Below, in pieces: positions 226 to 54,400 of a DNA stretch of 64,000 bases (positions are counted from its first letter, which is position 1; every line of letters starts with the position of its first letter). This DNA comes from a virus (taxonomy: Duplodnaviria; Heunggongvirae; Uroviricota; Caudoviricetes). A program made the position numbers and the translations under genes. Under the pieces are notes generated by a model. It ran no database searches. It worked only from the letters and a program-made list of their open reading frames with translations, and was not told the DNA's origin. The stretch lies in the IMG/VR virus record IMGVR_UViG_3300037067_009442, positions 157,721 to 221,720 of that record, one strand, 5' to 3'.

Positions 226-486
226 CTAGAGATCTTCAGTGATACCCCTCTCAAATCGAGAGGGGTGCTCTGTACTGTCATAGCAGTAGTCTACGTCATG
301 TCGCGTAGTAGGGCTGTTGATCTTCCCCTCGATGACTGTCTTCTTGATAGGCTCTGGACCTGTGTACCGAATGGGTATGACCTTCCACCCCTTGGCACAG
401 ATCCCGCTCCACTCCATCGTATCGGCATTGAAGGTAGTCAAGTCTTGGGGGTGATGGAGACACTTATCACAGAAGGTAAGACTCAC
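226..486 (-). CDS. Hypothetical Cys-containing small protein; C-terminus ends HPSRFERGITEDL (shared C-terminal motif)
   Basis: ORF track entry. Its N-terminus abuts the stop of the 488..1066 gene. Carries the C-terminal RFER motif found in other proteins here. Confidence 0.3.
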   Translation of the reverse strand: MSLTFCDKCLHHPQDLTTFNADTMEWSGICAKGWKVIPIRYTGPEPIKKTVIEGKINSPTTRHDVDYCYDSTEHPSRFERGITEDL

Positions 487-487
487 T

Positions 488-1066
488 TTAAATGACGTCT
501 TCCCGCTCGAAGCGAGTGAGTCGTTGAACTTCTACTAGGGGTTTCCGAGTTCTCACTTCTCTATCAATATCCCAGTTGACTTTCCTACTCCGATAGCCCC
601 TTTGTTCAGCATCAAGCAAGTAGATCAACCTCACTTTACGAAAGCTCCCTAAGATCCCAGCAGTCCGCTCTTCTTCCGCTAGGTTACGGACTATTACCTG
701 TGCAGTAGAATCTGTAGAGCTGTCAAACTCTCTACGAAGAGTATCCATCTCCTCTAGGATACTCTCTAGTAACTTGAGTCGATCTTCCTCAAAGAGAACC
801 GTGACTACAGCATCTTCTCGAGCAAGGTCGAGAGCCTCATAGTTACACGTCCAAATGTACTCCGACGTTGAGCACATAGAGCAACTAACTCCGAAGCTTA
901 GGAATCCGTGGTACCCACGTGGGTAGACGTGGAAGTGATGACCTGAGTGCGTCAGATGCTCCCCGAGGCTATACAGGAGTATATTGATGTCCGAGAAGTG
1001 GGGCACGTGTTCAAATCTACCTAAAACTGAACCCACTTGAAACCAAATTCGACCTTTGGCTTCCAT
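488..1066 (-). CDS. Hypothetical protein; C-terminus ends LTRFEREDVI
   Basis: 192-aa ORF with no competing ORF. Its C-terminal peptide TRFEREDVI is identical to the C-terminus of the 10519..11001 ORF but is encoded with different codons. Confidence 0.45.
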   Translation of the reverse strand: MEAKGRIWFQVGSVLGRFEHVPHFSDINILLYSLGEHLTHSGHHFHVYPRGYHGFLSFGVSCSMCSTSEYIWTCNYEALDLAREDAVVTVLFEEDRLKLLESILEEMDTLRREFDSSTDSTAQVIVRNLAEEERTAGILGSFRKVRLIYLLDAEQRGYRSRKVNWDIDREVRTRKPLVEVQRLTRFEREDVI

Positions 1067-1124
1067 TTACCAGAGAATTGGTGTAGGCTCTCCAACCTAA
1101 AACCCTGAAAGAGCTGGTGCCTCG

Positions 1125-2283: not shown

Positions 2284-2290
2284 CTAACGT

Positions 2291-2351
2291 CCTACGCACG
2301 AGAGCCCCAATCTTAACCAAAAAGTTGAGATCTGGGGCTCTCGTGCGTAGG
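2291..2351 (+). promoter_or_regulatory. Perfect 19-bp inverted repeat hairpin (cctacgcacgagagcccca / tggggctctcgtgcgtagg) with a 23-nt near-palindromic loop, 7 nt upstream of the ATG at 2359
   Basis: Read directly from the sequence. No T-tract follows, so it is a candidate RNase III or processing site, a terminator without a U-tail, or a translational regulator. Confidence 0.5.
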
Positions 2352-2358
2352 ATAGATC

Positions 2359-2658: not shown

Positions 2659-2669
2659 TAGTAGAGGTT

Positions 2670-3926: not shown

Positions 3927-3929
3927 CCT

Positions 3930-6061: not shown

Positions 6062-6080
6062 TATTGAGCCTTTAAGGAGT

Positions 6081-10518: not shown

Positions 10519-11001
10519 ATGCCAGACTACCAAGATGTTCTAGCGATGTATCGGGCTATCCACTATCATCTCCATAGTCACTCGGGTGACCACATTAACG
10601 CCAATATAGCTAATGAGGATGACGGAGGAAGTCTCAGAATTCGATATGTTTGTACCGACTGTGCCACTGGTGATACTGTTTGGACAACCAGTATCACCTC
10701 CATTCGAAGGTCAATTGAACGGGATGATCGTATCCGAGAACCAATGATGTCGGCTCAGGGAAGAGACTCACTCATTGAGGTCTTACGTCAGTACCCTGAT
10801 ATCAGGGATGTTCCGTTCCTAAGTCCACCAAGGATAACCCCAGAGGTGGAAGCGGAACAACTCAGGCAACTTTGGGGGGTGCCTGAGTTAGAAGCGAGGG
10901 TTGCATACGAAGAGCAGGTGAGTAGGGAAGCAAGGGCCCAGTTCGAAGGTAGGGTTCACGATAAGGTACCCACCAGGTTTGAACGGGAAGACGTGATTTA
11001 G
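10519..11001 (+). CDS. Hypothetical Cys-containing protein; C-terminus ends VPTRFEREDVI
   Basis: 160-aa ORF with gaggag upstream. Carries the shared C-terminal motif. Confidence 0.45.
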   Translation: MPDYQDVLAMYRAIHYHLHSHSGDHINANIANEDDGGSLRIRYVCTDCATGDTVWTTSITSIRRSIERDDRIREPMMSAQGRDSLIEVLRQYPDIRDVPFLSPPRITPEVEAEQLRQLWGVPELEARVAYEEQVSREARAQFEGRVHDKVPTRFEREDVI

Positions 11002-13116: not shown

Positions 13117-13455
13117 TTGTTGCTCTCTTGCCTATGCTTTCAAGTTGGGTCAACGAGTATGCCCCAACCACTACTTAAACAAGGCTACTACTGGGTCGCT
13201 CACTCCACAGCCAAAGAAATGCCCCCAAGAGTGGCATTTCTTTGGATAGGAGAAGAGGGTAAATTCTTTTGGTATGTTACAGGGGGCCGCCTCGAACTAG
13301 ACTTTGAGTACTTCAGTATCATCGAAGGCCCACTCTATGCTCCAATACGATCTGATGGGGGTCCTATTGAAGGAACTACTAGATTTGAGCGTGTATTGGA
13401 TGGGGCCCATATTGAACCGGACTCTAACCTTGAAACTTCGATGCTTGAGGTATAG
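13117..13455 (+). CDS. Hypothetical protein with TTRFERVLDG motif near C-terminus
   Basis: 112-aa ORF carrying the shared motif. Confidence 0.35.
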   Translation: MLLSCLCFQVGSTSMPQPLLKQGYYWVAHSTAKEMPPRVAFLWIGEEGKFFWYVTGGRLELDFEYFSIIEGPLYAPIRSDGGPIEGTTRFERVLDGAHIEPDSNLETSMLEV

Positions 13456-14476: not shown

Positions 14477-14959
14477 ATGCCCCGAATTCAATACGAGTAT
14501 CACCTAAAGGTTTACACCTGTCACGGAGAGCTTGAACCCCCCGATGGTGGAAACTGGAGGGTCTATAAGTCCCACCTGGAGAGGGGTAGGATCTACGTAC
14601 AAGTCATCTGGAGGCGGCCTATTCCTGGGTCTATGACCGAACCTGGAAAGTTTGAGCCGATCCGGTCGATGAACGTTGCTTGCATCAACGAAAAGCGATG
14701 CGAGGGCCCCTACGGACCCAATAAGTGTATTGCCTGTGATAACTACTACCGAACCTACCCGAATGGGAAGGCCAGTATCCCTGAGATGATCGATGCTGGT
14801 GAGAAATTCCTTCACACGGTGATAGGAAAGACTGGAGGGGATCACCCTGGGATCATCCGGGACCTGAGACTCCAAGTCGACCTACACGGGACACCCTCAG
14901 TGAAGCCTGAGCAATTAGCCGAGTTGGAGACCTTCTTTCATTCGCTGTTCAAGCCATGA
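14477..14959 (+). CDS. Hypothetical Cys-containing protein
   Basis: 160-aa ORF. Confidence 0.4.
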   Translation: MPRIQYEYHLKVYTCHGELEPPDGGNWRVYKSHLERGRIYVQVIWRRPIPGSMTEPGKFEPIRSMNVACINEKRCEGPYGPNKCIACDNYYRTYPNGKASIPEMIDAGEKFLHTVIGKTGGDHPGIIRDLRLQVDLHGTPSVKPEQLAELETFFHSLFKP

Positions 14960-15414
14960 ACTTCTCAAAAGCCCTTGAGCACCTGAAGGCGGGGCGTAGA
15001 ACTCGACGACCCGGGAAGTTCTGGGTACGCTTGGAGAACTACGATAACACTCTCCTGGGTAAGTATTGGGTAGCCGAGGGCCCAGCTGGTGAGACAACCA
15101 GCTGGGTATTCAATGTCAGTGACCACCTAGCTGAAGACTGGGAGGTAGAGAATGCCCCCACTCCAATCCTATCAGAGTTCAGTTCGGATCAGAGCTGCAT
15201 GATCTTCTCTGGTGCTAATCACCAAGAGATCCTTCGAATTACCTCAGAGGGTAACCTTCTAGTGAAGGGTAAGTTAGTTAAGTGTGATGAAGAACTCCTT
15301 CAGGGTTTCAAGGAGTTCTTCACTTTGATGAATGGAGGGGTTGTTCTTACTCCAGAGCGGAGTGAGATCCCAACTCGATTCGCTCGTATCCTAGGGGGCT
15401 TCAATGCCGATTGA
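14956..15414 (+). CDS. DUF2829-like phage protein; IPTRFARIL motif near C-terminus
   Basis: The N-terminus MNFSKALEHLKAGRRTRRPGKFWVRL resembles the DUF2829 signature. The start overlaps the previous stop (ATGA). Confidence 0.4.
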   Translation: MNFSKALEHLKAGRRTRRPGKFWVRLENYDNTLLGKYWVAEGPAGETTSWVFNVSDHLAEDWEVENAPTPILSEFSSDQSCMIFSGANHQEILRITSEGNLLVKGKLVKCDEELLQGFKEFFTLMNGGVVLTPERSEIPTRFARILGGFNAD

Positions 15415-16057: not shown

Positions 16058-16732
16058 ATGGCGTTCAACATCAAGTCACTTAGAGTTGTTACTGAAAGTA
16101 CAAACCTCACCGCCAAAGATGATAATCTCATTTATGATGGTACAGGAAATGTATTTGAGCAGTTCTACTTACCCAGTAGCCCTGTAGTCGGTCAGACCCA
16201 TAGTATCACTATCAAGGCAATGGATGATCTTGCCGCTGCAAACTTCTATGGGTCACCCTTCCTAATAAGAGTGACCCCTGCTTACTCCACTGCCACCCTA
16301 TCCATTAGAAATTCTCTGGTGGAGTGGACCCTGAGCTTCACCTTTGATGGTACTGAGTGGATCCTTACTAGGACCCATCCAGTACCAGGGAAGATGACTT
16401 ATCGAAACTTGAATAGTGGACCCTCTGTTAACATAGAGGCTTGGGATGACTTGCTTCACTGCACCGCTAACCCGCTAACTGTCAACCTACCAGCTGTCCA
16501 CTTCACTGGCCAGACCCATAGATTTCTGATTCGACCTAATGGTGAATACTCTGTCACCCTTACTGGGTCCGGCTCTGATGTAATACTAGTTACTAATATG
16601 ACTACTGGCGGAAGTCTTGCTGAAGTAAGCTCAGTAGACATATCAGTAAATAGTACGATAACTACCGTAACTTGGGTAGGTGATGCCTGGTTAACTGACG
16701 TAACAGCCCGCTTTGAGACTTACATAACATGA
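16058..16732 (+). CDS. Hypothetical beta-rich protein; C-terminus ends VTARFETYIT
   Basis: 224-aa ORF carrying a variant of the shared motif. Confidence 0.4.
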   Translation: MAFNIKSLRVVTESTNLTAKDDNLIYDGTGNVFEQFYLPSSPVVGQTHSITIKAMDDLAAANFYGSPFLIRVTPAYSTATLSIRNSLVEWTLSFTFDGTEWILTRTHPVPGKMTYRNLNSGPSVNIEAWDDLLHCTANPLTVNLPAVHFTGQTHRFLIRPNGEYSVTLTGSGSDVILVTNMTTGGSLAEVSSVDISVNSTITTVTWVGDAWLTDVTARFETYIT

Positions 16733-23732: not shown

Positions 23733-24539
23733 ATGCCGGTTCGCCCTCTACTTGACATCAGGATCGATCTAATCGACTCCCTCTCTGCTCTTGGGGCTAC
23801 AGTAGTCGATGCTACTCGAGTAGCCGACGGAGTAATTGATGCAGGTGGAAATCCAGTAGCTGGGATCCGGAGTACACAGGAGTTGTATCGAGAGTTGGAT
23901 ACCTTGCCTAGGGGGTATCACCCCCTCTCTCGAATCATGGACCCTGAGGAGTTGGCGCATTTTCTGGCCAACTCTAACCTAGCCCCTGTAACTCCTATTG
24001 TAGACATTGAACCCCAAGAGGGGTCTACTAGGGAGATCAGACTTGGGGTACCTTCTACTCCAGCAGGCACCAGCCCGATGCCTATGTTTGAGCTCTACAG
24101 TAACCCATCGGTCCATATTACAAAGGCACAGGCTAGAAAGATCTTCAAGGGGTTCCCTATGTGGAAGAATGGACCGCCGCGACCCGGGTGGATTAAGGTT
24201 GGACTTGTATTCACCCATAAGTCATCAAAAGCATCCTATCGAGTAGTAGGGTTTGACGGGACTGGGGTTCAAGCAACTGCTATTAAGGGGGATGCAAGGG
24301 GACTAATCACTAACATCAAGTACCGAGATATCCACAAGTCTTGGAAGACGGACGAATTCATTCTATGTGATGAGTGCCGAGCCGTACCGGAGAGTACAAC
24401 TATCTGTACTAGTTGTGGAAGAAGAAAGCTTCGCAAGACAGATGATACCGGATGGGAGCTGCCTAAGTTCTGTGAGACAGCTTTTGATGACCCAGATCCG
24501 CTTCCGAAGACGAGATTTGAACGAGAGGATCCGATCTAG
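23733..24539 (+). CDS. Hypothetical protein with C-terminal zinc ribbon; C-terminus ends KTRFEREDPI
   Basis: CDEC ... CTSCG, then the shared C-terminal motif. Confidence 0.4.
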   Translation: MPVRPLLDIRIDLIDSLSALGATVVDATRVADGVIDAGGNPVAGIRSTQELYRELDTLPRGYHPLSRIMDPEELAHFLANSNLAPVTPIVDIEPQEGSTREIRLGVPSTPAGTSPMPMFELYSNPSVHITKAQARKIFKGFPMWKNGPPRPGWIKVGLVFTHKSSKASYRVVGFDGTGVQATAIKGDARGLITNIKYRDIHKSWKTDEFILCDECRAVPESTTICTSCGRRKLRKTDDTGWELPKFCETAFDDPDPLPKTRFEREDPI

Positions 24540-34122: not shown

Positions 34123-34650
34123 CTACATCACCGGGTTTATTTTGGGATCAATCTCGAGCTCACAAAACTCGATGTCCCCATTCTGGGGGTAAATGAAGTA
34201 GGCTTCAACCTGAATTTGAGGGTTCTCCCTCCTGATCCAAGCGGCACTACATTGGAGGTCCTTGATCTGTTGACTCAAGACCTTATTATCCGGTTGGCCA
34301 GTCATCCTTTTCTGGTAGTACCCGCAACTCACATGAGCAATGAGGAAGACCCTCTGAGTGTGGTGCCCTCGAATCAGGAATCGAGTACTCGATCTGACAG
34401 ATTCTGTATCACTAATTGAAGAACCAGACATGTCCAGTAGAGCAGGACCCCCAGGAATTGCTAGAGTATCATAACTCTGATACCCCTTGTGGGCCATTAA
34501 GTCAGCTACTGGTACAGTAAACCTACCGTCGCTGCATCTGATGATGAGCGTTTCAGGGTGTTCCCTTTGAAAACTACGCTTTACCTTGAAAACGTTTCGG
34601 AAGGTCATCTTAGTTCCCCATACACCAGTAGTTGGTGTATGGTCAATCAA
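34123..34650 (-). CDS. Beta-carbonic anhydrase-like protein
   Basis: CSDGR (CxDxR) at residues 39-43 and HVSCG (HxxCG) at 106-110 match the beta-CA zinc ligand spacing. Confidence 0.45.
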   Translation of the reverse strand: MIDHTPTTGVWGTKMTFRNVFKVKRSFQREHPETLIIRCSDGRFTVPVADLMAHKGYQSYDTLAIPGGPALLDMSGSSISDTESVRSSTRFLIRGHHTQRVFLIAHVSCGYYQKRMTGQPDNKVLSQQIKDLQCSAAWIRRENPQIQVEAYFIYPQNGDIEFCELEIDPKINPVM

Positions 34651-35249
34651 TGAAAGGTCGAGTCTTCGGTCTAACTGGAGGGATTGCTTCCGGGAAGAGC
34701 ACCGTATCCAAGTTGTTCCAAAGGGATAATATCCCGATGGTGGATGCCGATGAAGCGGCCAGAGCTGTAGTGGACCCAGGGAAACCTGCCCTAAGGGATC
34801 TGGTTCACGTATTCGGATCTCAAATCCTCCTCGAGGACGGGAAGTTGAATAGGCCTCGATTGGCAGCCCTCATCTTCATGGACCCTAAGAAGCGTTGTGC
34901 TTTGGATCAGATCATCGAGGGTTACTTGATGGTGGAGATCAACACTCGATTGAAGAAGGCTGTGGAGGGGAACCCTCTCGTTGGTTTTGATGCTGCTCTA
35001 ATCATCGAGAAGGGGCATGAGAAGGAGTATCGACCTCTCGTGGTTGTAGCTGCCACTCCAGAAGTTCAACTCCAGAGGATTCAATCTCGAGACGGATTCA
35101 ATGAGGCAGAAGCAAAAGCTCGCTTGGCCTCTCAACTCCCCATGTCCGAGAAGGTGAAGTTCGCTGATCACGTGATCTGGAACAACGGTACCGTAGAGGA
35201 GCTAGAGAAGCAGGCCATCAGCGTGCTTGTTCGGCTGCGTAACCCATGA
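34632..35249 (+). CDS. coaE: Dephospho-CoA kinase
   Basis: P-loop VFGLTGGIASGKSTVSKLF plus overall CoaE-like layout. Confidence 0.7.
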   Translation: MVYGQSMKGRVFGLTGGIASGKSTVSKLFQRDNIPMVDADEAARAVVDPGKPALRDLVHVFGSQILLEDGKLNRPRLAALIFMDPKKRCALDQIIEGYLMVEINTRLKKAVEGNPLVGFDAALIIEKGHEKEYRPLVVVAATPEVQLQRIQSRDGFNEAEAKARLASQLPMSEKVKFADHVIWNNGTVEELEKQAISVLVRLRNP

Positions 35250-36503: not shown

Positions 36504-36876
36504 TTACTTGACTGTTCAATTACCCCTCCCAGATCTATCCACGTTGACTCAGGCAGAGCTCACTGCTCTCCGGACGTACCTGAATGCCAAGTGCAAGGAA
36601 GCCCGTAAGGAGTCCTCTAGGCTCATAGGGAAGGTTGTAGTGGTTCGGGATCTGTGGCTCAAGACTATCGCCCTCAAGGGGGATGCTACTGCTGAGGAAC
36701 GGGAAGCAGTTAATGCTCCCTTCTACCAAGAAGCGATGAAGCACCCAGAGCTTTTTGTATCTTACGCCTGGGCAAACTCCCTCTCTACTTTGGATCGTCA
36801 TATTTGGGCAACCATGATGGATCGGTCAAAGCTAATGGAAGCGGAGAAGACTAAGAAGTCATCTCGAACCACCTAG
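36478..36876 (+). CDS. Hypothetical protein
   Basis: 132-aa ORF overlapping the previous gene. Confidence 0.3.
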   Translation: MLLLHVADDYLTVQLPLPDLSTLTQAELTALRTYLNAKCKEARKESSRLIGKVVVVRDLWLKTIALKGDATAEEREAVNAPFYQEAMKHPELFVSYAWANSLSTLDRHIWATMMDRSKLMEAEKTKKSSRTT

Positions 36877-37588
36877 CAGAGAGCATCCGAGCATAAAATA
36901 CTGGATTGAGGCCGTAGGTACCTAAGGAGTACCCTTCGTTCATTTCGACGAGAAGGGTCTTACCTGAGTCCGTCACTCCCCAGTCAAGACTATATGCGGT
37001 CGGGGCGGTACCCTTCATGAGCTGTACAGCCTCTTCCACGGTAGACCGATCCGGAGCCTTAGCCCAATCCCCCTTGTAGTGGCGGCAATCTAGGATGGCG
37101 TGATCCAAGATGAAACTTCGATACTCCGAGACGAAGTTGACGGGCTCAGAGATCCAAATCTCCACATCATCTGCCAGAGTTACCGTCTTTCTCCTTGATT
37201 CAGGGTCATTCGGTAGCCACAGGAGACCGCTAAATAGCTTGTGCTCTAGCGGCTTGATGAACCAAGGGTAGTGTGATTGACGAACATCCTCGAGAAGACC
37301 CTTGAAGAGTTTTCGCTCCAAGAACTTCTCGAGAGGAGTCGGGTAGTCTACGACCGGAGGGATCGGTTTCCCCAACTTGGTTAGTGCTCGGTGAACATCT
37401 CCGATGTACCCAGCAACCCCAACAGTAGGTCCTAAATCCTCAATGGAATCAATATCATCAATCCACTCATAGGGGTTTGTTTCGATCCCTAGTTCCCAGA
37501 ACCCTCTCCGAGCTGAATCCTGAAGGGTCGTTTCGGGGTAACCCTCACGGTGACGAACATAGAATTTAGTGGCTTTAGGGGGGTTCAT
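36851..37588 (-). CDS. Hypothetical protein
   Basis: 245-aa ORF. Confidence 0.4.
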   Translation of the reverse strand: MNPPKATKFYVRHREGYPETTLQDSARRGFWELGIETNPYEWIDDIDSIEDLGPTVGVAGYIGDVHRALTKLGKPIPPVVDYPTPLEKFLERKLFKGLLEDVRQSHYPWFIKPLEHKLFSGLLWLPNDPESRRKTVTLADDVEIWISEPVNFVSEYRSFILDHAILDCRHYKGDWAKAPDRSTVEEAVQLMKGTAPTAYSLDWGVTDSGKTLLVEMNEGYSLGTYGLNPVFYARMLSARWFEMTS

Positions 37589-46891: not shown

Positions 46892-47765
46892 GTAGATGCT
46901 GGATACCCCTCAAGTCCATAGGTTGATTCCTTATTACTATGGGGTTACATTTAGCAGTCTCAATCCTTGAAGCGAGGATCTTCTTTAGTGGTTCCTCTAG
47001 TAGCTTGTTGAGGGTTGATCCCTCAACAAATCTACCATCTTCAAGTACCCCACTTAAGGTTGTTGCATTAGGTACTTGAACGAGTCTGAACTTAACCAAG
47101 TACCTAGTCATTTCAGTAATGGGGTCTAGGTCATAGTCATAGAGCTCACCAGTACCCTGGCAACGACAATGCTTGGCTTGAACACAGTCTAGGATAGCGG
47201 TACCTTTTTTTGAGGTAAACCTAGACCAGATGTGGTCCAAACCCCAACCATATCGATTACCCTCAAATAAAGGAATAACCTTTCTCAATGCTTCCATAGA
47301 CCAACATGGGACCATAGTTTCAACCATGGTAGTATACCGGAGCTTGAAGCCTTCATGTACCGCTGTGATGGGGTGACTGATAAACCCATCTAGACTCAAT
47401 GCAGGTTGGGCCAATTGAAGATTGTACTCACCCATTGTTAGGAATAACTTGTCTATGTTGGCGGTGGTGAACTCCATATCATCATCGACCAACCAAACAT
47501 ACTTCCGATCTTTGAATAAGTCGGGGCGGGTGTGCCAAAGATTGAAGGTATCCTCGAGTTTCCCACCAACCCCATCAACACGTTCAAAACCATCCCCCCT
47601 GTATTTCTCTGAATCAGTTCCATAATAGGAGACTAAAAGATCCCAATGAGGGCTAGTACCCCAGGTCTTGTGGCGAGATTGCTCTCCTGCACGAGCTATG
47701 ACAAGATTTGGTGAGGACATAGTAGGCACTAAGTAAAGGAAACAGTGATCCCGGAGGAGATACAA
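46866..47765 (-). CDS. Glycosyltransferase-like protein (DXD motif)
   Basis: YVWLVDDDMEF resembles a GT-A fold DXD motif. The assignment is tentative. Confidence 0.35.
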   Translation of the reverse strand: MYLLRDHCFLYLVPTMSSPNLVIARAGEQSRHKTWGTSPHWDLLVSYYGTDSEKYRGDGFERVDGVGGKLEDTFNLWHTRPDLFKDRKYVWLVDDDMEFTTANIDKLFLTMGEYNLQLAQPALSLDGFISHPITAVHEGFKLRYTTMVETMVPCWSMEALRKVIPLFEGNRYGWGLDHIWSRFTSKKGTAILDCVQAKHCRCQGTGELYDYDLDPITEMTRYLVKFRLVQVPNATTLSGVLEDGRFVEGSTLNKLLEEPLKKILASRIETAKCNPIVIRNQPMDLRGIQHLLSIQKSKS

Positions 47766-50700
47766 CTTGCATCTCCTCCAGTGTTAGTTGGAGTAGTCAG
47801 CCAAAACTCTAGTGTTGTTGCACCTGTTGCTGGGGTGACAATACCCCCAACAGAGAATTCAGTCTGTAGGCCATCGATAACATCCGATTCGTATAAGGAA
47901 ATGCTGTTGGTCTTGTCATATAGGCGTACTTGAGCAGTTGACCCTGTTGGGATATTGATGATGGCGTCAAAAGTGAAGGTAGGAGTACCAGTGCCTAAGT
48001 TGAAGTAATCTAGTGCGGGAAGTACACCAAGTAGGGTGTAAGTACTCCCCGCTGATTGAACCCCAGCCATAAGAGGTAGGTACTTCATCGAAGAAGGTGG
48101 TGCATTAATAGTGATTGTACCACTATATACACTCATTGAGGACCTGAAGCTCCAGTAACTAAAGGAGTCCATTTCAACTCCACTACCTACCTCCACCCAA
48201 GAACTCCAATTAATAACGCTATTAATACTCCCTGAGCTGTCAATCTCTATGTACCCTGTTGAACTCGAGATACTAACTCGATTAGTATCATCAACTTGAG
48301 CCTCTAAACCCATACCTACTAACTCAGAATTCAAGTCACTTACGATCTGACCCTTTGAGGTTTCCACACCTGCTGTGACAGTAATTGAGGTAAATGGATC
48401 TCCATCGTGACTCTTAATTAGTAGGGTGTTGGCAGTAGTAGTATCTACTGGATCTAGGGTATTGTACCCTCCAATACTACACATGAATAAGGTAGTGGGG
48501 CCATCAAAGGTGCAATTAGTGAGCTGAAGGCCATTGCCATAAATAACAGCGCTCTGAAAGATGCACCTATCGGCTATAAAACTACCAGTGAAAGTACCCC
48601 CTACAACGACTCTATTCAAACTAACCCTAGAGCCAACTTGCATCCCGTTAGCAAGGTAAACACACTCAAGGTAACCACTGCCACTCAAAATACTAACGTA
48701 GGGTAGTGTTACTGAGTAAGGGCTCACCCCGAGCCCCTTTATACTGAGGGGGTTTGGGGGGTTGTGGGTGGATAACCAGTAGACTAGATCCCCTGAGTAG
48801 TTACCTGGGGTGACAAGTAAGGTTGGGCCCGGGTAGGTGATGCCGCTTACTTGACTGATTGCAGAACTTATCGATGAGTATGGGTTACCTATACTACCAT
48901 TCTCACTGGTAAGTGGTAGACTCGTCCCACCATCAAGGTAACGAATGTTTGACAGTGGTGTTAAAACACTGGTTGCTACCTCAAGCTTAATGGACCCTCC
49001 TCGAAGAGTTAGGACCTTACCTTGGTTAACCCCAAGATCCGTGATAGGTGCAACAGGGATCCCCGCTAGGTGCATCAAAGAACCTAACTTAAGGGCCCCA
49101 CCCATTGGGTAAGTAGTAATGGGGTAGGTGTTTCCGTCATCACCTACCTGGCTCACATAATCACCCTGACGGAAGGCTATGTAAGGCCCTCCTTGGTTGA
49201 TACTTGTGATACAAGAAGGGCCATCTGAAGGTAGGTTCTGACTTAGGCTGATTGACCCTAGTCCTGGAATACAGTGGACTCGGTAAGGATTTAACCCCTC
49301 ATCGGGCCCACCTGTCAGCAACCAAAAAACACTTCTAGATGTATCAATCGACACGTCTAGGGCATAAGTGGGAGCACTCTGTAGTTCCGATAGGTCCCAA
49401 GCCTCTATTTGAGAACCTGGGGCATAGTAAGGGTTTTCCCTAAATTGACCCTCAATAATGTTGATCCAGATTTCCCCATCAAAGTCATTCTCTGCCACCA
49501 TCAAGTAAGTGTCAGACCCACTTGTATATTGCTTGACCGCAGCTACCTGAATCCCGTCCCCTACTACTGTAGGGTTCAGGTAAGTGTCAACGTAGTTGCT
49601 TCCTTGCAGTAAGTGGTAATGATAGGCCCCGGAGTAAGGAGCAGCAGCAAGGTAGTCATACCCTCCAAGAGTGTTAGCTATCCTGATGATACCCGCTAAA
49701 TCAGTATCATCCGTTGGATCTGCCGCAACCACAAGACTGTCCACGTCATCATTAATGTGGACCTCAGTCTCCCCTAAGTGAGCATTGAACTTAGCTTTGA
49801 GATCAATAGCGAGGGCATAACTATTGGGGTAAGAAGGACCCTCATAAGGATCATCAAGGGTTGCATCACCAGTGACAACGTTTGCCACGTCATCTATAAG
49901 GTGGGACCCAAATTGAGTCCTGTGTGCATTGAACTTGTCCCTCAGATCATTGAGTAAGATAGCAACCTCAGGGAAGCTGGGGGATAACCCTATTGTACTG
50001 AAGTTGACCGTATCAGATATGTTATGAACAGGACACTTTACTTGAGACCTGTGGGTGTTGTAAACAGAACGGATGTCATTTGCTAGGGCTATGATCCCTG
50101 GAAGATCAGTATCATCCATTACCACATCAACAGTCAACCTCGAGAGGATGTCTATGTAGTAATGGAGTCCAGTGATTGTAAGCCCCCCATAAGCCCAGTT
50201 AGGTGTGTGAGTGTGACCAGATAAGTAACCTCGAAGCCTATTAGCTAGCTCAGTGGCTGTCGTGTAAGGGCTCGCCACATCTGTGGCATCCGGAGTTGTC
50301 ATTATGTTCCCAGTATCAGGGAACAAGTGGACCTCAGGTTGGACAAGGTGCAGGTTGAACTTAGCCTTCAGGTCATTAAGAAGCAACTGCACTGAAGTTA
50401 AGTCAGTAGCTTCTGGTAGGGTTACTGAGTTGAAGGTGTCGTTGTTCTTGTGGACAGTGAGAGAAGGGTTATACCTTGAGACAATCCCGAATGTACTATC
50501 TCTCCCATAAACCTCTCCTCCATACCAAATGAAGTCTGAGGTACTGGTTTCAACATTCACCCTAGGTATGAACTCAGAGTTTGGGTGAGAGTCTACCGCA
50601 TCGATAACCCCAGTTGAAGGGTTGATCCTGAGTATTCTGAAGACAGACTCGAAGCTATCCATCACACCAACTACCAAAAGACCATTGGTATAGCCGATTG

Positions 50701-52603
50701 ATAGCAGTTGGCTGATTGACGACGGCAAAGTCATTGCCAATGAGTAGGCTACCACTGGAGAAACTAAAGTAGTGTCAACCTTCCAAAGGTAATAGCTTGG
50801 GGCTGCGGGAGCCTCTTGGTAAGTACCAGTGAACCAAGCGTACCTAGTCCCATCAAATACCCCATTGAAGATCTCAAGGCTATTCAGATCGAGTGTTCCG
50901 CCAGTATTGTTCAGGTTAATTGAGGTTGAGACGTATTGGTCAGGAGTCAACTCTGAGATCGCAACGTGAACCACACTTGACTTCCTAACAACCATGAAGG
51001 TGTAGGGGTCAAGAGGGACAATCTTATGAGGTGCTCCAGATTCCGGAAAGGATGTCAGAACATCCCCAGCCTTCACCATATCGGGGTAAGGTACTGGGGT
51101 GTTCAGGTTCAAGTTGGTGACAACCTTCTCTGAAAATCCAGTGATCGGACTCGGGATAGTAGTCTCACCAATGGTGAATGAAGTGAACCCATGCTCGGAT
51201 AGAACAGGATTATCTCCAACAGACACCCATACCTTGACCCCCTGTACTGTTACTTGGTTGTACTGGGAAGTCATCCACCCTTCAGTTGCGGCATTAGGCC
51301 CTAGAGCTACTGTTTTGGCCTTAGTCGTAATATCAACCGCAGTCACATGCTTATGGCTGTCTGAGATGTAGAGTGCGGTAGTTGTGGAGGCTATCCCAGT
51401 AGCATAAGGCTCATAGTAGTTACCACTAGTATTCCAGCAGATTTCAGTACTTGAGGTAGGTGCAGCTGGGAAAGTAGGAATGTCATACTGGAACAAGTAC
51501 GACATCTCAGACATCTCACCAAAAGACTGTAAACCAAGCAACCAGATGTTCCCATCAGTGCTTATGATATCGATGGCACTGAACCAGTCAGTAAGCATCA
51601 CAAAAGTAGAGGTGAGTGTTGTCGGGTTGATCCTTACAAGGGTTTGGCTCCTAGCAGCCCAGATGTAACCATCGGAACCAAAGTGCATTATTTTCAGGTC
51701 GTCAATCGGACCACCAGTGATAACAACCCTAGTCCCATTGGGAGCTTGTGCGGGGAACGCGACTCGAACCTCAGACATCGGTATGTACTGAACGGCACTC
51801 TCTGGTTCAGGGTTGTTGGCATAAGCTAACCAAAGGCGATCAGTGCTGTCGACACAAGCAGTGCATTCCCAAGAAAGTAGTGGAACCCAACCCACCATCT
51901 TCTCAGTGAGTAAGTCAACCACGACTACCGCGACACCACTAGTGTCAAAACCTAGGAGGTAGTTTCCATAGATCTTCAGGGTGGAGATGTAGAAGGTGTT
52001 TAACTCAGTTGAGGTATGAATGATGGCTAACGGAGAACTCCAATCATCTGGATTCACCTTCGCAATCAGGCTCATGCTTGAACTAGTTACCCAAAGGTTA
52101 GTACCGTCCGAGACAACACCACTCCCAGGGGTAAATTGAAGATCAGGGCTAGTGTACAGAACTTCTTTGATCGGTAGCCCTTCAACTCCAATCACCGTTT
52201 GAACGGTAGATGAGCCTGCTAGGTCTCCACCTGCGGTAAACCCTCCTCCGCCCCCCGCTGCCCATTGAGCATGAGTTGAGTCGATAGCAGTGAGTACCTG
52301 TCCCGTAGTAGGGGCGGTTGCACCAGAGACTGAAACTACTGTTGTAGTAGTCTGAAGCCCAGTAGCTACTCCACTTAGGGCCTCAGCAGCCCACGTGGAA
52401 AGATCTGATAATAACCTGTACTTGGTCCCAGTATCGAGGGTGAGAGCTTCCATGCCCTCTTCTCGGATATATACAGGGATAGTATCATCAGTTAGGTTGG
52501 CCAAGCTGGCAACCATCTGAGGAGCTCCAACGATGTCCTTCCGATCAGCAGTCGGAGTGGGGGCGTTGTTCTTGCGAGTGGCTTTGTCTAGGAATTCAGG
52601 CAT
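47729..52603 (-). CDS. Giant virion fibre / structural protein (about 1,625 aa)
   Basis: Continuous 4.9-kb ORF. The ATG at 52603 overlaps the upstream stop (TAATG). The N-terminal motif SGATAPTTGQVLTAIDSTHAQWAAGGGGG is shared with the other structural proteins. The rest is rich in beta-helix/propeller-like repeats. Confidence 0.6.
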   Translation of the reverse strand: MPEFLDKATRKNNAPTPTADRKDIVGAPQMVASLANLTDDTIPVYIREEGMEALTLDTGTKYRLLSDLSTWAAEALSGVATGLQTTTTVVSVSGATAPTTGQVLTAIDSTHAQWAAGGGGGFTAGGDLAGSSTVQTVIGVEGLPIKEVLYTSPDLQFTPGSGVVSDGTNLWVTSSSMSLIAKVNPDDWSSPLAIIHTSTELNTFYISTLKIYGNYLLGFDTSGVAVVVVDLLTEKMVGWVPLLSWECTACVDSTDRLWLAYANNPEPESAVQYIPMSEVRVAFPAQAPNGTRVVITGGPIDDLKIMHFGSDGYIWAARSQTLVRINPTTLTSTFVMLTDWFSAIDIISTDGNIWLLGLQSFGEMSEMSYLFQYDIPTFPAAPTSSTEICWNTSGNYYEPYATGIASTTTALYISDSHKHVTAVDITTKAKTVALGPNAATEGWMTSQYNQVTVQGVKVWVSVGDNPVLSEHGFTSFTIGETTIPSPITGFSEKVVTNLNLNTPVPYPDMVKAGDVLTSFPESGAPHKIVPLDPYTFMVVRKSSVVHVAISELTPDQYVSTSINLNNTGGTLDLNSLEIFNGVFDGTRYAWFTGTYQEAPAAPSYYLWKVDTTLVSPVVAYSLAMTLPSSISQLLSIGYTNGLLVVGVMDSFESVFRILRINPSTGVIDAVDSHPNSEFIPRVNVETSTSDFIWYGGEVYGRDSTFGIVSRYNPSLTVHKNNDTFNSVTLPEATDLTSVQLLLNDLKAKFNLHLVQPEVHLFPDTGNIMTTPDATDVASPYTTATELANRLRGYLSGHTHTPNWAYGGLTITGLHYYIDILSRLTVDVVMDDTDLPGIIALANDIRSVYNTHRSQVKCPVHNISDTVNFSTIGLSPSFPEVAILLNDLRDKFNAHRTQFGSHLIDDVANVVTGDATLDDPYEGPSYPNSYALAIDLKAKFNAHLGETEVHINDDVDSLVVAADPTDDTDLAGIIRIANTLGGYDYLAAAPYSGAYHYHLLQGSNYVDTYLNPTVVGDGIQVAAVKQYTSGSDTYLMVAENDFDGEIWINIIEGQFRENPYYAPGSQIEAWDLSELQSAPTYALDVSIDTSRSVFWLLTGGPDEGLNPYRVHCIPGLGSISLSQNLPSDGPSCITSINQGGPYIAFRQGDYVSQVGDDGNTYPITTYPMGGALKLGSLMHLAGIPVAPITDLGVNQGKVLTLRGGSIKLEVATSVLTPLSNIRYLDGGTSLPLTSENGSIGNPYSSISSAISQVSGITYPGPTLLVTPGNYSGDLVYWLSTHNPPNPLSIKGLGVSPYSVTLPYVSILSGSGYLECVYLANGMQVGSRVSLNRVVVGGTFTGSFIADRCIFQSAVIYGNGLQLTNCTFDGPTTLFMCSIGGYNTLDPVDTTTANTLLIKSHDGDPFTSITVTAGVETSKGQIVSDLNSELVGMGLEAQVDDTNRVSISSSTGYIEIDSSGSINSVINWSSWVEVGSGVEMDSFSYWSFRSSMSVYSGTITINAPPSSMKYLPLMAGVQSAGSTYTLLGVLPALDYFNLGTGTPTFTFDAIINIPTGSTAQVRLYDKTNSISLYESDVIDGLQTEFSVGGIVTPATGATTLEFWLTTPTNTGGDASCISSGITVSFT

Positions 52604-53934
52604 TAGAGCACCGTCACCGTTGTTGAGCCCAGACCCGGAGTAGTGGAGACTCTCCAAAGGTCATAGTTTTGAATGATCCCTTGAGCATTAGTTACAGCTA
52701 CTGCGGAGGCCTCTAGGGACCCCGCGTATTGAAGCCCACCCGACCAGAAGATTGGGGTTCCATAGCTCGAGGGAAGTGCAAAGTATAAATACTGGCCTGC
52801 TAATGCATTATCTGTGTAGGTAGTAACCCTCGAGGTTTGCAGGTTACTACTAGCTAGGCCTGTAATGAAGGCAGCATTATAAGTTCCAGAGACAGAGGCA
52901 CCATGGTATACCCTAGGGAGCCAAGTCACAGTTACTGCAGAAGACTTAGCTGAAGCCCCCGTGACATTGAGAGTCATTGTCCAAGTTGGAGCTGCCCCGA
53001 TCCCAGAGCGAAGGATGGATCCTGCCATGGACCCTGAAGCGAATGGACTATTGAAGGTCCAACTCCCTGGAGCAGTATCAGTCCCACCTGTAGAACCCCC
53101 TGTAGAGTTGGTAATCGTGCCGCTAACAGGGGGTCCAGAGACATAGGATGCAGAAGCCGTTACCCCAGAGATCTCCGTTCCTAGTTCAACTACAGCTGAG
53201 TAATTAGTGCCTGTAGGTGTGAAAGAGGCAATAGAGAAACCTGGAAGGATATCGTCTTGAGTGAGTTGCCTCTTGACGTTCCCACTTGGTGAGCCAATAA
53301 CAACCGCCTCATTAGCTAGGTTGAGCCATGCTGCATTAGTTGAATCAGTAGCCTCAAGGATAGCTCCTGTTGAAGGGGGTGTTGCTGAAAGAGCTACACC
53401 TCGAAGAGCTACCACAGAGGGTGTGGGGTAGTTTGCACCTAAGTCACCTCCAGCAGGCCCTGAAGGTGCTCCGCCACCTCCGCCACCTCCGGATCGTATG
53501 AAAGCATTGAGGAGGGTAGTCCAACCAAAGTCAGGATCCCCTTCGAAGCGCTCCCCTACTGCTCCAACCCGGAAGCCACTACTGAGTAAGGTGTAGACCC
53601 CAAAGGTTGATACTTGACCTGGCCCCCCACCGTCAACAGTAGACCTGAGGATAATAGCCCTCCCAACACCAACACCAACAGGTAAGGTGAAGGTGACAAC
53701 TGTCGAAGGTGATGCTACTTCCCCAGTACCTGAGACCCCAGTAAGAGGTGGGGCACTTGCAGTGACCTCATCGACCCCAAAGACTTTCAGAAACCACTGT
53801 CCAACTGGACCTGGTGTCTTCAATCGAATACTAACAGTATCTCCGGCCGCTACATCGATCCCCCCAGCGGTTTCATACCATGTCCCTGGAGAGGGGTCAG
53901 AAGAGTACTGAACTTGAACTGACGGTGATGACAT
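52603..53934 (-). CDS. Virion structural protein (Gly-rich, fibre/baseplate-like)
   Basis: 443-aa ORF with a GGGGGGG run and the shared SATPPSTGAILEATDSTNAAWLN motif. Confidence 0.5.
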   Translation of the reverse strand: MSSPSVQVQYSSDPSPGTWYETAGGIDVAAGDTVSIRLKTPGPVGQWFLKVFGVDEVTASAPPLTGVSGTGEVASPSTVVTFTLPVGVGVGRAIILRSTVDGGGPGQVSTFGVYTLLSSGFRVGAVGERFEGDPDFGWTTLLNAFIRSGGGGGGGAPSGPAGGDLGANYPTPSVVALRGVALSATPPSTGAILEATDSTNAAWLNLANEAVVIGSPSGNVKRQLTQDDILPGFSIASFTPTGTNYSAVVELGTEISGVTASASYVSGPPVSGTITNSTGGSTGGTDTAPGSWTFNSPFASGSMAGSILRSGIGAAPTWTMTLNVTGASAKSSAVTVTWLPRVYHGASVSGTYNAAFITGLASSNLQTSRVTTYTDNALAGQYLYFALPSSYGTPIFWSGGLQYAGSLEASAVAVTNAQGIIQNYDLWRVSTTPGLGSTTVTVL

Positions 53935-54019
53935 CCTAATGGTGGATGTCCGTCAAAAGTTTATCGATGAGCCGTCTTCAATAAGCCACTGATACAACTA
54001 CCACTAGTGAAGTACCCCT

Positions 54020-54400
54020 GTGACTGACCAAGACCCCCTAGTTCAGAAAGTAGTAAGTAGTTTTACTACAGAATCTAGTGACAACTCTCTAATCTCGAGA
54101 GTTGCTGAGCGATTCATCAAAGCTAGTTACTTCAAGCCGGGAGATCTCGTGCTCTATGGGAAATACAAGAACCATAAAGGCAAAGTGATCAGCTTCGGGC
54201 AGGACAAATGGGGTAACCCAACTGTAGAGATAGAGCCTATCCCTAAAGGGCGCAAACAGAACAAGATCTTTGGTCTGTTCCGTATCTGGCGGGCGGATGT
54301 TAAAGAGAAAGCTCTTGCCGAGCAAAAAGCCCAACAAGAGCAGGACAACCAACTAGTAACCAGAGTTACCGCTCGGTTTACTAACGACGGCGAACCTTAG
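54020..54400 (+). CDS. Hypothetical protein; C-terminus ends VTARFTNDGEP
   Basis: 126-aa ORF carrying a variant of the shared C-terminal motif. Confidence 0.35.
   Translation: MTDQDPLVQKVVSSFTTESSDNSLISRVAERFIKASYFKPGDLVLYGKYKNHKGKVISFGQDKWGNPTVEIEPIPKGRKQNKIFGLFRIWRADVKEKALAEQKAQQEQDNQLVTRVTARFTNDGEP

What the first reader, a model, noticed from the sequence alone, without database searches (positions are those of the whole stretch)
226..54400. Conserved C-terminal peptide motif (P/V)T(R/A)RFER(E/I)(D/L) on at least nine otherwise unrelated predicted proteins
The motif sits close to the C-terminus, 0-25 residues from the stop, in these ORFs:
- 488..1066 (minus strand): ...LTRFEREDVI*
- 10519..11001: ...VPTRFEREDVI*
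- 23733..24539: ...KTRFEREDPI*
- 226..486 (minus strand): ...PSRFERGITEDL*
- 38502..38897 (minus strand): ...IPTRFERILAEGGSNG*
- 14956..15414: ...IPTRFARILGGFNAD*
- 13117..13455: ...TTRFERVLDG...
- 16058..16732: ...VTARFETYIT* (degenerate form)
- 54020..54400: ...VTARFTNDGEP* (degenerate form)

The host proteins differ in size and in the rest of their sequence. The DNA encoding the motif uses different synonymous codons in different genes (ttt gaa cgg gaa gac gtg att, ttc gag cgg gaa gac gtc att, ttt gaa cga gag gat ccg atc). The conservation is therefore at the peptide level, not a repeated DNA element. This looks like a shared C-terminal sorting or docking signal, analogous in logic to encapsulin cargo-loading peptides, microcompartment encapsulation peptides, virion-packaging tags or protease recognition sites, but with a sequence I do not recognise from any described system.
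Basis: seen in the sequence. Interest (0 to 1): 0.8.

Follow-up and report, generated by a model that had tools for sequence, protein, structure and literature searches.

The report
Shared C-terminal tag in huge phages
About 7% of the genes in this window, which comes from a roughly half-megabase phage, end in the same ten-residue peptide (PTRFER…) attached by a flexible linker to otherwise unrelated proteins; it looks like an undescribed address label, whose destination is not yet known.

Summary
The motif is real. Seven of the nine listed ORFs carry it (0.05 expected by chance, P about 1e-16). The two "degenerate" cases are not members, and two carriers are paralogs.

It has two forms:
- Type A: (L)PPTRFER[ED][DPE]VI-COOH, always exactly at the C-terminus.
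- Type B: PTRFER[IV]L followed by a short acidic tail.

Selection acts on the peptide: all synonymous codons are used. The tag sits after a Pro/Lys/Glu-rich linker. In related contigs I found 110 distinct tagged proteins in about 51 sequence-unrelated families. One 512 kb genome has at least 30.

Among 2.9 million viral contigs, the tag occurs only in one narrow clade of huge phages. This clade is related to Bacillus phage G through its capsid protein. The tag also occurs in integrated mobile elements of one "delta-proteobacterial" MAG. In 870 kb of related huge phages and in Myxococcus phage Mx1, it is at chance level or absent.

Pfam, NCBIfam and the searchable literature do not describe it.

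Carriers include a Tad2-like anti-defence protein and rearranged capsid-protein homologs. The latter lie in a module where nearly every gene is tagged.

Best reading: a portable docking or sorting peptide for one common receptor. The most likely single destination is the (pro)capsid, but this is unproven.

The parts
488..1066 (-). Carrier ORF (192 aa), type A tag LTRFEREDVI* encoded at 491-520; paralog of 10519-11001
   Evidence: 25.7 bits
226..486 (-). Carrier ORF (86 aa; 63 aa in database gene call), divergent type B tag PSRFERGITEDL* encoded at 229-264; body homologous to a tagged ORF of the 512 kb phage (L040 4021-4380)
   Evidence: 13.3 bits
10519..11001 (+). Carrier ORF (160 aa), type A tag PTRFEREDVI* encoded at 10969-10998; tag identical in the 76%-identical ortholog P0002
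   Evidence: 29.2 bits
13117..13455 (+). Carrier ORF (gene call 13159-13455, 98 aa), type B core TTRFERVL at 13375-13398 followed by an 18-residue tail; core conserved in L002 ortholog
   Evidence: 22.4 bits
14956..15414 (+). Carrier ORF (152 aa) with N-terminal Tad2-like (anti-Thoeris) domain; type B tag PTRFARILGGFNAD* at 15370-15411 (Glu replaced by Ala, also in the L002 ortholog)
   Evidence: 24.2 bits
23733..24539 (+). Carrier ORF (268 aa, zinc-ribbon-like CxxC...CxxC near the C-terminus), type A tag KTRFEREDPI* at 24507-24536
   Evidence: 25.1 bits
38502..38897 (-). Carrier ORF (131 aa), type B tag PTRFERILAEGGSNG* at 38505-38549; body (res 2-100) has tag-less homologs in Dolichospermum phage Dfl-JY45 and a 642 kb uncultured phage
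   Evidence: 29.0 bits
16058..16732 (+). NOT a member: ...VTARFETYIT* is a chance resemblance
   Evidence: -8 bits; L002 ortholog ends ...SPRLYYAP
54020..54400 (+). NOT a member: ...VTARFTNDGEP* lacks the invariant E-R
   Evidence: -17 bits

Best explanation
The peptide is a portable C-terminal short linear motif, an 'address label'. This clade of huge phages has attached it, through a flexible Pro/Lys/Glu-rich linker, to dozens of unrelated proteins so that they all dock onto one common receptor.

Shown:
- Peptide-level selection.
- Modularity.
- Two forms with strict geometry.
- Restriction to one clade.
- At least 30 carriers per genome.

Inferred from sequence: P-(T/S)-R-F-E is a Pro-N' plus S/T-x-x-E helix capping box. 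The tag would therefore begin a short helix that presents Phe plus Ile/Leu (type B) or Phe plus the terminal Val-Ile-COOH (type A), flanked by two invariant Arg. An acidic patch or the free carboxylate lies 4-6 residues further on.

Most likely destination (inferred, not shown): the assembling procapsid or a capsid-derived shell. On this reading the tag is a C-terminal counterpart of the T4 capsid-targeting sequence or of an encapsulin cargo-loading peptide. It would load a diverse, fast-evolving set of small proteins, including anti-defence proteins such as the Tad2-like one, for delivery with the DNA. It might be clipped off at the invariant Glu/Arg.

My probabilities:
- About 0.85 that it is a docking or sorting peptide for a common receptor.
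- About 0.35 that the receptor is the (pro)capsid or a capsid-derived shell.
For: Real and non-random.

Peptide-level, not DNA-level. All three stop codons follow it and read-through frames close at once.

Many unrelated carriers: 110 unique proteins in 51 clusters, median length 130 aa, often in tandem arrays of diversifying paralogs.

Linker enriched in Pro 2.1-fold, Lys 1.9-fold and Glu 1.65-fold.

Modular addition: tag-less body homolog in another phage. The Tad2-like domain occupies only residues 1-64 of its carrier.

Clade-specific:
- Three back-translated patterns hit only nine contigs among 2.9 million viral contigs.
- 3 chance-level hits in 870 kb of related huge phages, against 145 in 329 kb of the tag clade.
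- None in Mx1.
- At least 30 tagged ORFs spread over 17-503 kb of one 512 kb genome.

Capsid link: a syntenic module in which 7-9 consecutive genes are tagged contains two proteins with clear homology to the phage G major head protein.
- PDB 6WKK_A: E = 3e-12 and 1e-9.
- hhalign: 99.2%, 98.0% and 97.7% probability.

[quoted passage not shown] Giant-phage heads hold about 50 different proteins, and a C-terminal propeptide has been proposed to target the prohead protease into the core (PMC7411985).
Against: - No receptor was identified and there are no virion proteomics data.
- The tag also occurs, with the same consensus, in integrated elements of a bacterial MAG. These elements share no other substantial homology with the phages. 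Their VapE-like primase resembles those of roughly 40 kb temperate phages. That is easier to explain with a host-encoded receptor, unless the elements are satellites of the huge phages.
- The all-tagged module lies among nucleotide-metabolism and anti-defence genes and two AAA+ ATPases, not in a classical head-gene cluster.
- The capsid-like proteins are rearranged, and I could not show that they are the virion shell. The AlphaFold model was unusable (pLDDT 40.5).
- Some carriers look like cytoplasmic DNA-metabolism proteins: a RecA/DnaB-like P-loop protein and an HU/IHF-like protein.
- The strictly terminal position of type A (65 of 65 unique type A carriers have exactly four residues after RFER) is typical of carboxylate-reading receptors such as AAA+ proteases and PDZ or TPR domains.
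- R-F-E does not fit the T4 (L/I-x-E) or phiKZ/SPN3US (A/S/G-x-E) protease site.
Confidence: 0.35

Rival explanations
1. Recognition tag for an AAA+ unfoldase or protease. The tag would be a degron or handle engaged by the phage's two Cdc48/p97-like single-ring ATPases, or by a host AAA+ protease, which read the C-terminal Val-Ile-COOH or acidic tail. The outcome would be timed degradation, unfolding or remodelling of the tagged proteins.
For: - Type A is always exactly at the C-terminus and ends in two aliphatic residues.
- Two classical-clade AAA+ ATPases are conserved parts of the module in which nearly every gene is tagged: PDB phmmer E = 1e-16 to 1e-18 to Cdc48/p97/VAT, one D1-like and one D2-like.
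- The general logic of ssrA/ClpX, Pup/Mpa and MIM/Vps4 (my own knowledge).
Against: - Myxococcus phage Mx1 has the closest cultured homolog of one of these ATPases (30% identity over 87% of its length) but no tag anywhere in its genome.
- Type B tags are not terminal, and some copies are internal or N-proximal.
- No partner protease was seen next to the ATPases.
- A degron on capsid-like proteins and on a stoichiometric sponge such as Tad2 seems counter-productive.
- No AAA+ ATPase was found in the parts of the window that I annotated.
Confidence: 0.2
2. Docking motif for a host protein. Phages and other mobile elements of one host lineage would use the peptide to plug many early or take-over proteins into a conserved host hub, such as a chaperone, the polymerase, a clamp or a localisation hub.
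For: - The same consensus (PPTRFERE[DEP]VI*) is found in huge phages (GC 0.47-0.51) and in integrated elements of a genuine bacterial MAG (GC 0.53-0.58; neighbours YebC, ArgJ and GH53). These elements carry an integrase or a VapE-like primase and share no other substantial homology with the phages.
- In the MAG element L020, the tagged ORFs lie in a row of small genes upstream of the replication genes.
- The narrow phyletic range fits a host-lineage-specific partner.
Against: - It is hard to see why at least 30 proteins per genome, including capsid-derived proteins, would all need the same host partner.
- The motif does not resemble the hub-binding motifs I know: clamp QL[SD]LF, SSB tail DDDIPF, FtsZ C-terminal peptide.
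- No tagged housekeeping host protein was seen, although only 24 kb of the MAG could be read.
Confidence: 0.2
3. Import or retention signal for a phage-built intracellular compartment or condensate, such as a replication factory or a shell made from the rearranged capsid-like proteins, rather than for the virion.
For: - Sticker-plus-flexible-linker architecture.
- Capsid-protein homologs that are split and permuted, and lie outside a head-gene neighbourhood.
- DNA-metabolism carriers.
Against: - No chimallin-like, BMC or encapsulin family hit in any stretch annotated.
- The phage encodes a sigma-70-like factor, not the multisubunit polymerases of nucleus-forming phages.
- The rest is conjecture.
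Confidence: 0.1
4. No function of its own. The motif would be chance, the shared end of one paralogous family, a translated DNA repeat (terminator or recombination site), or a by-product of stop-codon recoding linked to the suppressor tRNA.
For: - Some carriers are paralogs: 488-1066 with 10519-11001, and several multi-member clusters.
- The window encodes a tRNA with anticodon UUA.
Against: - P is about 1e-16 against chance.
- 51 clusters have no body similarity.
- Synonymous sites are randomised.
- All three stop codons are used without bias and the downstream frames are closed.
- The tag is conserved while its flanks diverge between the window and L002.
Confidence: 0.01

Closest known systems
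T4-type capsid targeting sequence (CTS) of internal proteins IPI-III and Alt
   Same: - A short conserved peptide of about 10 residues is the only thing shared by a hypervariable set of small phage proteins, some of them anti-defence proteins.
- The peptide is portable.
- Carriers are encoded in plastic loci.
(PMC3012670, PMC7411985.)
   Different: - The CTS is N-terminal, binds the scaffolding core and is removed by gp21 at L/I-x-E.
- The tag here is C-terminal, has no sequence resemblance, marks an order of magnitude more proteins, and also occurs in integrated elements of a bacterial genome.
- Packaging and cleavage are untested.
Encapsulin cargo-loading peptides
   Same: - A C-terminal peptide of about 10 residues after a flexible linker.
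- It is attached to unrelated cargo proteins.
- The receptor in that system is an HK97-fold shell protein. HK97-type capsid homologs are present in the all-tagged module here.
   Different: - The consensus differs: encapsulin peptides have a GSL-type motif (my own knowledge).
- No Linocin/encapsulin family hit.
- The capsid-like proteins themselves carry the tag.
- The cargo repertoire is far larger and consists of phage ORFans.
C-terminal translocation signals of secretion-system effectors (for example Dot/Icm type IV effectors)
   Same: Dozens of unrelated, rapidly diversifying proteins share only a short C-terminal signal that delivers them to one machine (my own knowledge).
   Different: - Those signals are loose compositional biases rather than an invariant R-F-E-R core.
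- They belong to cellular secretion systems; no such system is evident here.
Terminal recognition tags of AAA+ machines (ssrA/ClpX, MIM motifs of ESCRT-III binding the Vps4 MIT domain)
   Same: - Short C-terminal peptides, some helical with Arg/Leu, read by an AAA+ ATPase.
- Cdc48-like ATPases sit in the tagged module.
   Different: - No sequence match.
- Type B is not terminal.
- The nearest cultured ATPase homolog (phage Mx1) exists without any tag.

Membership tests
T4-type capsid targeting sequence | Short conserved peptide as the only similarity among diverse small phage proteins | tested here: met
   110 proteins in 51 unrelated clusters; R-F-(E)-R invariant
T4-type capsid targeting sequence | N-terminal position | tested here: not met
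   141 of 151 occurrences lie within 30 residues of the stop codon
T4-type capsid targeting sequence | Contains a prohead-protease site (L/I-x-E in T4, A-x-E in SPN3US) and is removed on maturation | tested here: inconclusive
   An invariant Glu is present, but the context R-F-E fits neither published site. The prohead protease of the lineage (Tunturi_5 gp331 homolog) matched no Pfam or PDB entry. Cleavage itself is not testable with these tools.
T4-type capsid targeting sequence | Carriers are packaged in the head and ejected | not testable with these tools
   No cultured member and no proteomics
Encapsulin cargo-loading peptide | C-terminal peptide after a flexible linker | tested here: met
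Encapsulin cargo-loading peptide | Dedicated HK97-fold shell protein encoded with the cargo | tested here: inconclusive
   Phage-G-type MCP homologs lie in the all-tagged module, but they are rearranged, carry the tag themselves, and could not be modelled. No encapsulin Pfam hit.
Encapsulin cargo-loading peptide | Known consensus (GSL-type motif) | tested here: not met
   The consensus is PTRFER...; the comparison with the known motif is from my own knowledge
Bacterial microcompartment encapsulation peptide | BMC-H/BMC-P shell genes in the locus | tested here: not met
   No BMC or EutN family among the Pfam hits of any annotated stretch
AAA+ C-terminal degron (ssrA-like) | Extreme C-terminal position with a free carboxylate and apolar last residues | tested here: inconclusive
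   Met for type A (65 of 65 unique type A carriers end ...V/G-I/L exactly 4 residues after RFER). Not met for type B (5-25 more residues, often acidic).
AAA+ C-terminal degron (ssrA-like) | Cognate unfoldase/protease co-occurring with the tag | tested here: inconclusive
   A Cdc48-like pair is conserved in the tagged module, but a homolog exists in tag-free phage Mx1. No protease partner was seen.
Cell-envelope C-terminal sorting signals (LPXTG, PEP-CTERM and relatives) | Motif followed by a transmembrane helix and basic tail; matched by curated NCBIfam models | tested here: not met
   The tag is followed by 4-25 polar or acidic residues. No NCBIfam family is matched by more than 2 of 51 carriers.
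   51 clusters at blastp E <= 1e-3 with the tag removed. Only some are multi-member families.

The most novel reading that the evidence does not exclude
The tag is the address label of a previously unknown phage protein-sorting system. Dozens of effectors, including anti-defence proteins, would be delivered to a container built from a split and circularly permuted HK97 capsid protein, with help from a two-part Cdc48-like unfoldase. Integrated elements in the host genome (satellites or temperate phages) would have pirated the same label to get their own proteins aboard.
Probability: 0.15. Interest if true: 0.92.

Novelty: new variant of a known kind. Interest (0 to 1): 0.75.

Why it matters
Most genes of huge phages are ORFans with no handle for study. 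A ten-residue label shared by at least 30 proteins per genome sorts about 5-8% of the proteome into one functional class in a single step, and it predicts a single receptor that can be fished out with a synthetic peptide.

If the destination is the capsid:
- This would be the first C-terminal, genome-scale capsid-targeting code.
- It would point to a large arsenal of co-injected effectors, among them a Tad2-like anti-Thoeris protein.
- It would give a ready-made tag for loading foreign proteins into very large capsids.

If the receptor is a host hub or an AAA+ machine, it would be a new example of mass motif-based hijacking in bacteria.

Either way, the presence of the same label in integrated elements of a putative host genome links these uncultured half-megabase phages to a host lineage and to possible satellites.

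Tried and rejected
Searches that found nothing useful:
- Megablast of 14 kb of the window against 50,697 phage records: no match.
- Homolog search with one carrier: only itself and one 76%-identical ortholog in 5.8 billion proteins.
- Profile of the tag alone against the word-indexed database and against all 1.84 billion representatives: only known members passed. The tag is too short for library-wide significance, so no global census was possible. One 1,126-aa repeat protein (P0025) was a spurious hit with no RFER.
- Literature search for the motif strings and for C-terminal targeting motifs in huge phages: nothing relevant.

Annotations judged unreliable or uninformative:
- PHROG labels 'major head protein', 'head decoration' and 'virion structural protein' on three carriers are short local matches. 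Only the two MCP matches were later confirmed with PDB and hhalign.
- The prohead protease of the lineage could not be assigned to a family.
- The small ORFs of the MAG elements have no domains.
- The L022 integrase has no phage homolog at E <= 1e-10.

Modelling:
- AlphaFold2 of the permuted capsid-like protein P0005 with 11 sequences gave mean pLDDT 40.5. I did not use it for fold search.

Explanations rejected:
- Stop-codon recoding via the UUA tRNA.
- A translated DNA repeat.
- The L023 hit in a Multivoradales genome as a true member: it is not C-terminal.
- Mx1 as a tag-bearing model phage.

Not attempted: co-folding the peptide with candidate receptors.
Full report
OBSERVATION

The nine ORFs and their C-termini are in the window as quoted. 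Searching the six-frame translation for [ST]RFER gives six hits. Every one lies in a long ORF, 4-20 residues before its stop. A seventh carrier has TRFARIL.

In a 96-gene set, amino-acid composition predicts 0.05 occurrences anywhere and 0.006 in the last 30 residues. Six were observed, all C-terminal (P = 2e-11 and 7e-17). In 300 shuffles the maximum was one. The seventh carrier, 13117-13455, was missed by my greedy gene set, but it is the gene called on the source contigs.

An unbiased count of C-terminal 4-mers puts RFER and TRFE first, with no occurrence in protein bodies. A position-specific score built from 52 family representatives gives the seven members 13-29 bits. The next-best tail in the window scores -3.3 bits.

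The two 'degenerate' members score -8 and -17 bits. The ortholog of 16058-16732 in a related contig ends differently. So seven of nine are real. ORFs 488-1066 and 10519-11001 are paralogs.

PEPTIDE-LEVEL, NOT DNA-LEVEL

Across family representatives:
- All six Arg codons are used at both Arg positions.
- TTT/TTC is 26:26 and GAA/GAG is 26:24.
- Eleven unrelated families that end in the identical TRFEREDVI use eleven different 27-mers, with 0.42 identity at third positions.
- All three stop codons follow the tag in ordinary proportions, and the frames beyond the stop close at once. So the UUA-anticodon tRNA in the window plays no part.

EXTENT

A back-translated TRFEREDxI-stop pattern (about 38 bits) was scanned against three collections:
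- Viral contigs: 17 sites among 2.9 million contigs, all on eight contigs. One is a 512,571-bp contig with six sites.
- Metagenome contigs: 24 sites from a few samples.
- Genome contigs (185,579 species genomes): four sites. Three are in one MAG labelled 'uncultured delta proteobacterium'; one is a non-terminal chance match.

Two relaxed patterns (PTRFERxxVI-stop and TRFERILxDD) again hit only the same nine viral contigs.

In the short loci fetched around these sites, the simple regex finds 151 occurrences, 141 of them within 30 residues of a stop. I hold 104.6 kb of the 512 kb genome, a sample biased towards matches. It contains 30 tagged ORFs spread from 17 kb to 503 kb.

Controls:
- 870 kb from 83 loci of related huge phages have three six-frame hits, only one near a stop. 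The tag clade has 145 in 329 kb.
- 24 kb around the capsid gene of the 485 kb phage LR745208 has none.
- The 170 kb Myxococcus phage Mx1 has none in any real gene and no other recurrent C-terminal motif.

The window itself belongs to the tag clade. Its left end is syntenic, at 35-65% protein identity, with the 512 kb contig. Its source sample's sister run contains the all-tagged module described below.

ANATOMY

There are two forms.
- Type A (28 families): L-P-P-T-R-F-E-R-[ED]-[DPE]-V-I followed directly by the stop. All 65 unique type A proteins have exactly four residues after RFER.
- Type B (24 families): P-T-R-F-E-R-[IV]-L-x-[DE]-[DE]-[DE] plus 0-20 further residues.

R, F and the second R are invariant. 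E is replaced by A in a few cases, and T by S in about 13%.

The 15 residues upstream are enriched in Pro (2.1-fold), Lys (1.9-fold) and Glu (1.65-fold), and depleted in Leu, Met and Trp. This is a flexible linker.

From established helix rules (S/T-x-x-E capping box, Pro at N'; my own knowledge), P-T-R-F-E should start a short helix. In type B, Phe, Ile and Leu would fall on one face (i, i+3, i+4). In type A, the terminal Val-Ile-COOH follows one and a half turns later. This is inference; no structure was obtained.

Exceptions exist:
- One family has the motif 65 residues before the end.
- One family has SRFERLD near the N-terminus.
- One family has an extra internal RFEREG.
- One MAG protein carries a B-like copy 25 residues upstream of a terminal A tag.

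CARRIERS

With the tag removed, 110 unique proteins form 51 clusters at blastp E <= 1e-3. Median length is 130 aa, with a range of 61-386. Many sit in tandem arrays of diverging paralogs.

Most are ORFans. Recognisable ones are:
- a Tad2-like anti-Thoeris domain (window 14956-15414);
- an HU/IHF-like protein;
- a RecA/DnaB-like P-loop protein;
- zinc-ribbon proteins.

No Pfam, NCBIfam or PHROG model corresponds to the tag.

The tag is modular. The body of window 38502-38897 aligns to a protein of Dolichospermum phage Dfl-JY45 up to ...EAEAGHA, after which that protein ends in an unrelated tail. Between the window and its 76%-identical relative L002, the core is invariant while the flanks change.

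THE ALL-TAGGED MODULE AND THE CAPSID LINK

In at least ten contigs there is a syntenic block in which seven to nine consecutive genes are tagged. Two of them are homologous to the major head protein gp27 of Bacillus phage G (PDB 6WKK_A):
- The 250-aa protein contains MCP residues 3-94, the N-arm and E-loop (phmmer E = 3e-12; hhalign 99.2%).
- The 346-aa protein contains MCP 241-291 joined directly to about 58-144 (E = 1e-9; hhalign 97.7% and 98.0%).
- A third protein gives a weak match (75.6%).

The intact MCPs of phage G, Tunturiibacter phage Tunturi_5 and LR745208 have no tag. I saw no intact MCP in the tag-clade DNA I hold, but coverage is partial. An AlphaFold2 model of the 346-aa protein was unusable (pLDDT 40.5).

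The module also contains two single-ring AAA+ ATPases of the Cdc48/p97/VAT clade, one D1-like and one D2-like. It lies among thymidine kinase, NADAR, Acb1 and nucleotide-metabolism genes, not among classical head genes. The nearest cultured homolog of one ATPase is in Mx1, which has no tag.

THE BACTERIAL ELEMENTS

The three MAG loci are true chromosome (YebC, ArgJ and a GH53 hydrolase nearby). The tagged ORFs, two or three per locus, sit beside a VapE-like primase or a tyrosine integrase. The primase resembles those of roughly 40 kb temperate phages.

Apart from the tag, these loci share nothing substantial with the phage loci. GC is 0.53-0.58 against 0.47-0.51 for the phages. The consensus of their tags is the same as in the phages.

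MECHANISM

The evidence shows a short peptide under strong peptide-level selection. It is portable, placed at the end of a flexible linker, shared by dozens of unrelated proteins, and confined to one lineage of mobile elements. That is the signature of a docking or sorting signal for one receptor (my estimate 0.85).

The destination is inferred. I rank the (pro)capsid or a capsid-derived shell first (0.35), for three reasons:
- The only carriers with a clear structural identity are capsid-protein homologs in a block of co-tagged genes.
- The pattern of a hypervariable set of small proteins, one of them an anti-defence protein, sharing only a terminal peptide is exactly that of the T4 internal proteins and their capsid-targeting sequence (PMC3012670, PMC7411985).
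- The number of carriers matches the roughly 50 head proteins of giant phages.

Against it stand four points:
- The tags in temperate-type elements of a bacterial genome.
- The non-structural neighbourhood of the module.
- The DNA-metabolism carriers.
- The carboxylate-reading look of type A.

These points feed the two main rivals: an AAA+ recognition tag (0.2) and a host-hub docking motif (0.2). A compartment or condensate signal gets 0.1. Artefact explanations are excluded (0.01).

COMPARISON AND NOVELTY

The tag works like a T4 CTS, an encapsulin cargo-loading peptide or an effector translocation signal. It is not a member of any of them: position, consensus and partners differ, or are untested (see the membership table). 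I rate it a new variant of a known kind, a terminal sorting or docking peptide. Its scale and strictness have no precedent in phages that I know of, or that the searchable literature shows.

LIMITS

- No receptor was identified and there are no expression or proteomic data.
- No complete genome could be read.
- The tag is too short for database-wide profile searches.
- Co-folding could not be run.

Noticed in passing
window 41610-41698 (+): An 89-nt tRNA with anticodon UUA (ochre-suppressor type, long variable arm), next to the Ro60/TROVE gene. Stop-codon usage in the window is ordinary (TGA 36, TAG 36, TAA 24), and tagged ORFs use all three, so there is no sign of recoding.
   Followed up: partly
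L008 2331-3080 and 4197-5237; L133 8067-8816 and 10001-11059 (related huge-phage contigs): The phage-G-type major capsid protein appears split and permuted in this clade. One protein holds MCP residues 3-94. A second holds MCP 241-291 fused directly to about 58-144. Both end in type B tags. No intact copy was seen in the roughly 330 kb held. The structure model failed, so I cannot say whether the two together rebuild an HK97 fold.
   Followed up: partly
L133 3626-4861 and 13253-14467: Two single-ring Cdc48/p97-like AAA+ ATPases (one D1-like, one D2-like; the second has a roughly 40-residue poly-acidic tail) are conserved in the all-tagged module. The nearest cultured homolog is the AAA ATPase of Myxococcus phage Mx1.
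   Followed up: partly
L020 6128-7844, L021 5946-6619, L022 561-2301 (MAG MFD01476.bin.3.99): Tagged small ORFs lie in integrated elements of a bacterial chromosome, next to a VapE-like primase or an integrase. These could be satellites or temperate phages of the huge phages' host. L022 561-1694 carries a B-like copy (PPTIFERILSDD) and a terminal A tag on the same protein.
   Followed up: partly
window 42765-44450 (+): A Ro60/TROVE plus vWA protein, 42% identical over its full length to the TROVE protein of Myxococcus phage Mx1. This is one of only three window genes shared with Mx1, and a weak pointer to a Myxococcota-like host.
   Followed up: partly
window 31026-32957 (-) and 33012-33656 (-): An SPFH/Band-7 protein (643 aa) with a YqiJ_N (NfeD-type partner) protein upstream. 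It is followed by NUDIX (33733-34122), carbonic anhydrase (34123-34650) and CoaE (34632-35249). I found no link to the tag.
   Followed up: no
window 36851-37588 (-), 38033-38509 (-), 41698-42627 (-): An R2K-type ATP-grasp enzyme, a SLOG/DprA-like protein whose start overlaps the stop of the tagged ORF 38502-38897, and an ADP-ribosylglycohydrolase. This is a set typical of nucleotide and ADP-ribose conflict systems.
   Followed up: no
window 27720-28682 / 28986-29933 and 28694-28957 / 29946-30293: A tandem duplication of a two-gene unit (about 320 aa plus about 90-115 aa) with near-identical C-termini. No family match.
   Followed up: no
window 44386-45549, 54381-55112, 59380-60531, 61537-63408, 21079-21999, 1645-2283: Auxiliary genes: UDP-galactopyranose mutase, peptide deformylase, a sigma-70-like factor, an N6/N4 DNA methylase, a nucleoside hydrolase and a 5'-nucleotidase. 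There is also a 1,642-aa ORF (47729-52657) with no family match.
   Followed up: no
L133 11056-11595 (-) and about 14774-15349 (+); L133 9518-9904 (-): Non-terminal copies of the motif, conserved in orthologs: SRFERLD about 26 residues from the N-terminus of a 179-aa protein, RPTRFERILRENE 65 residues before the end of another, and an internal (L/V)RFEREG in addition to the terminal tag of the 128-aa family.
   Followed up: partly
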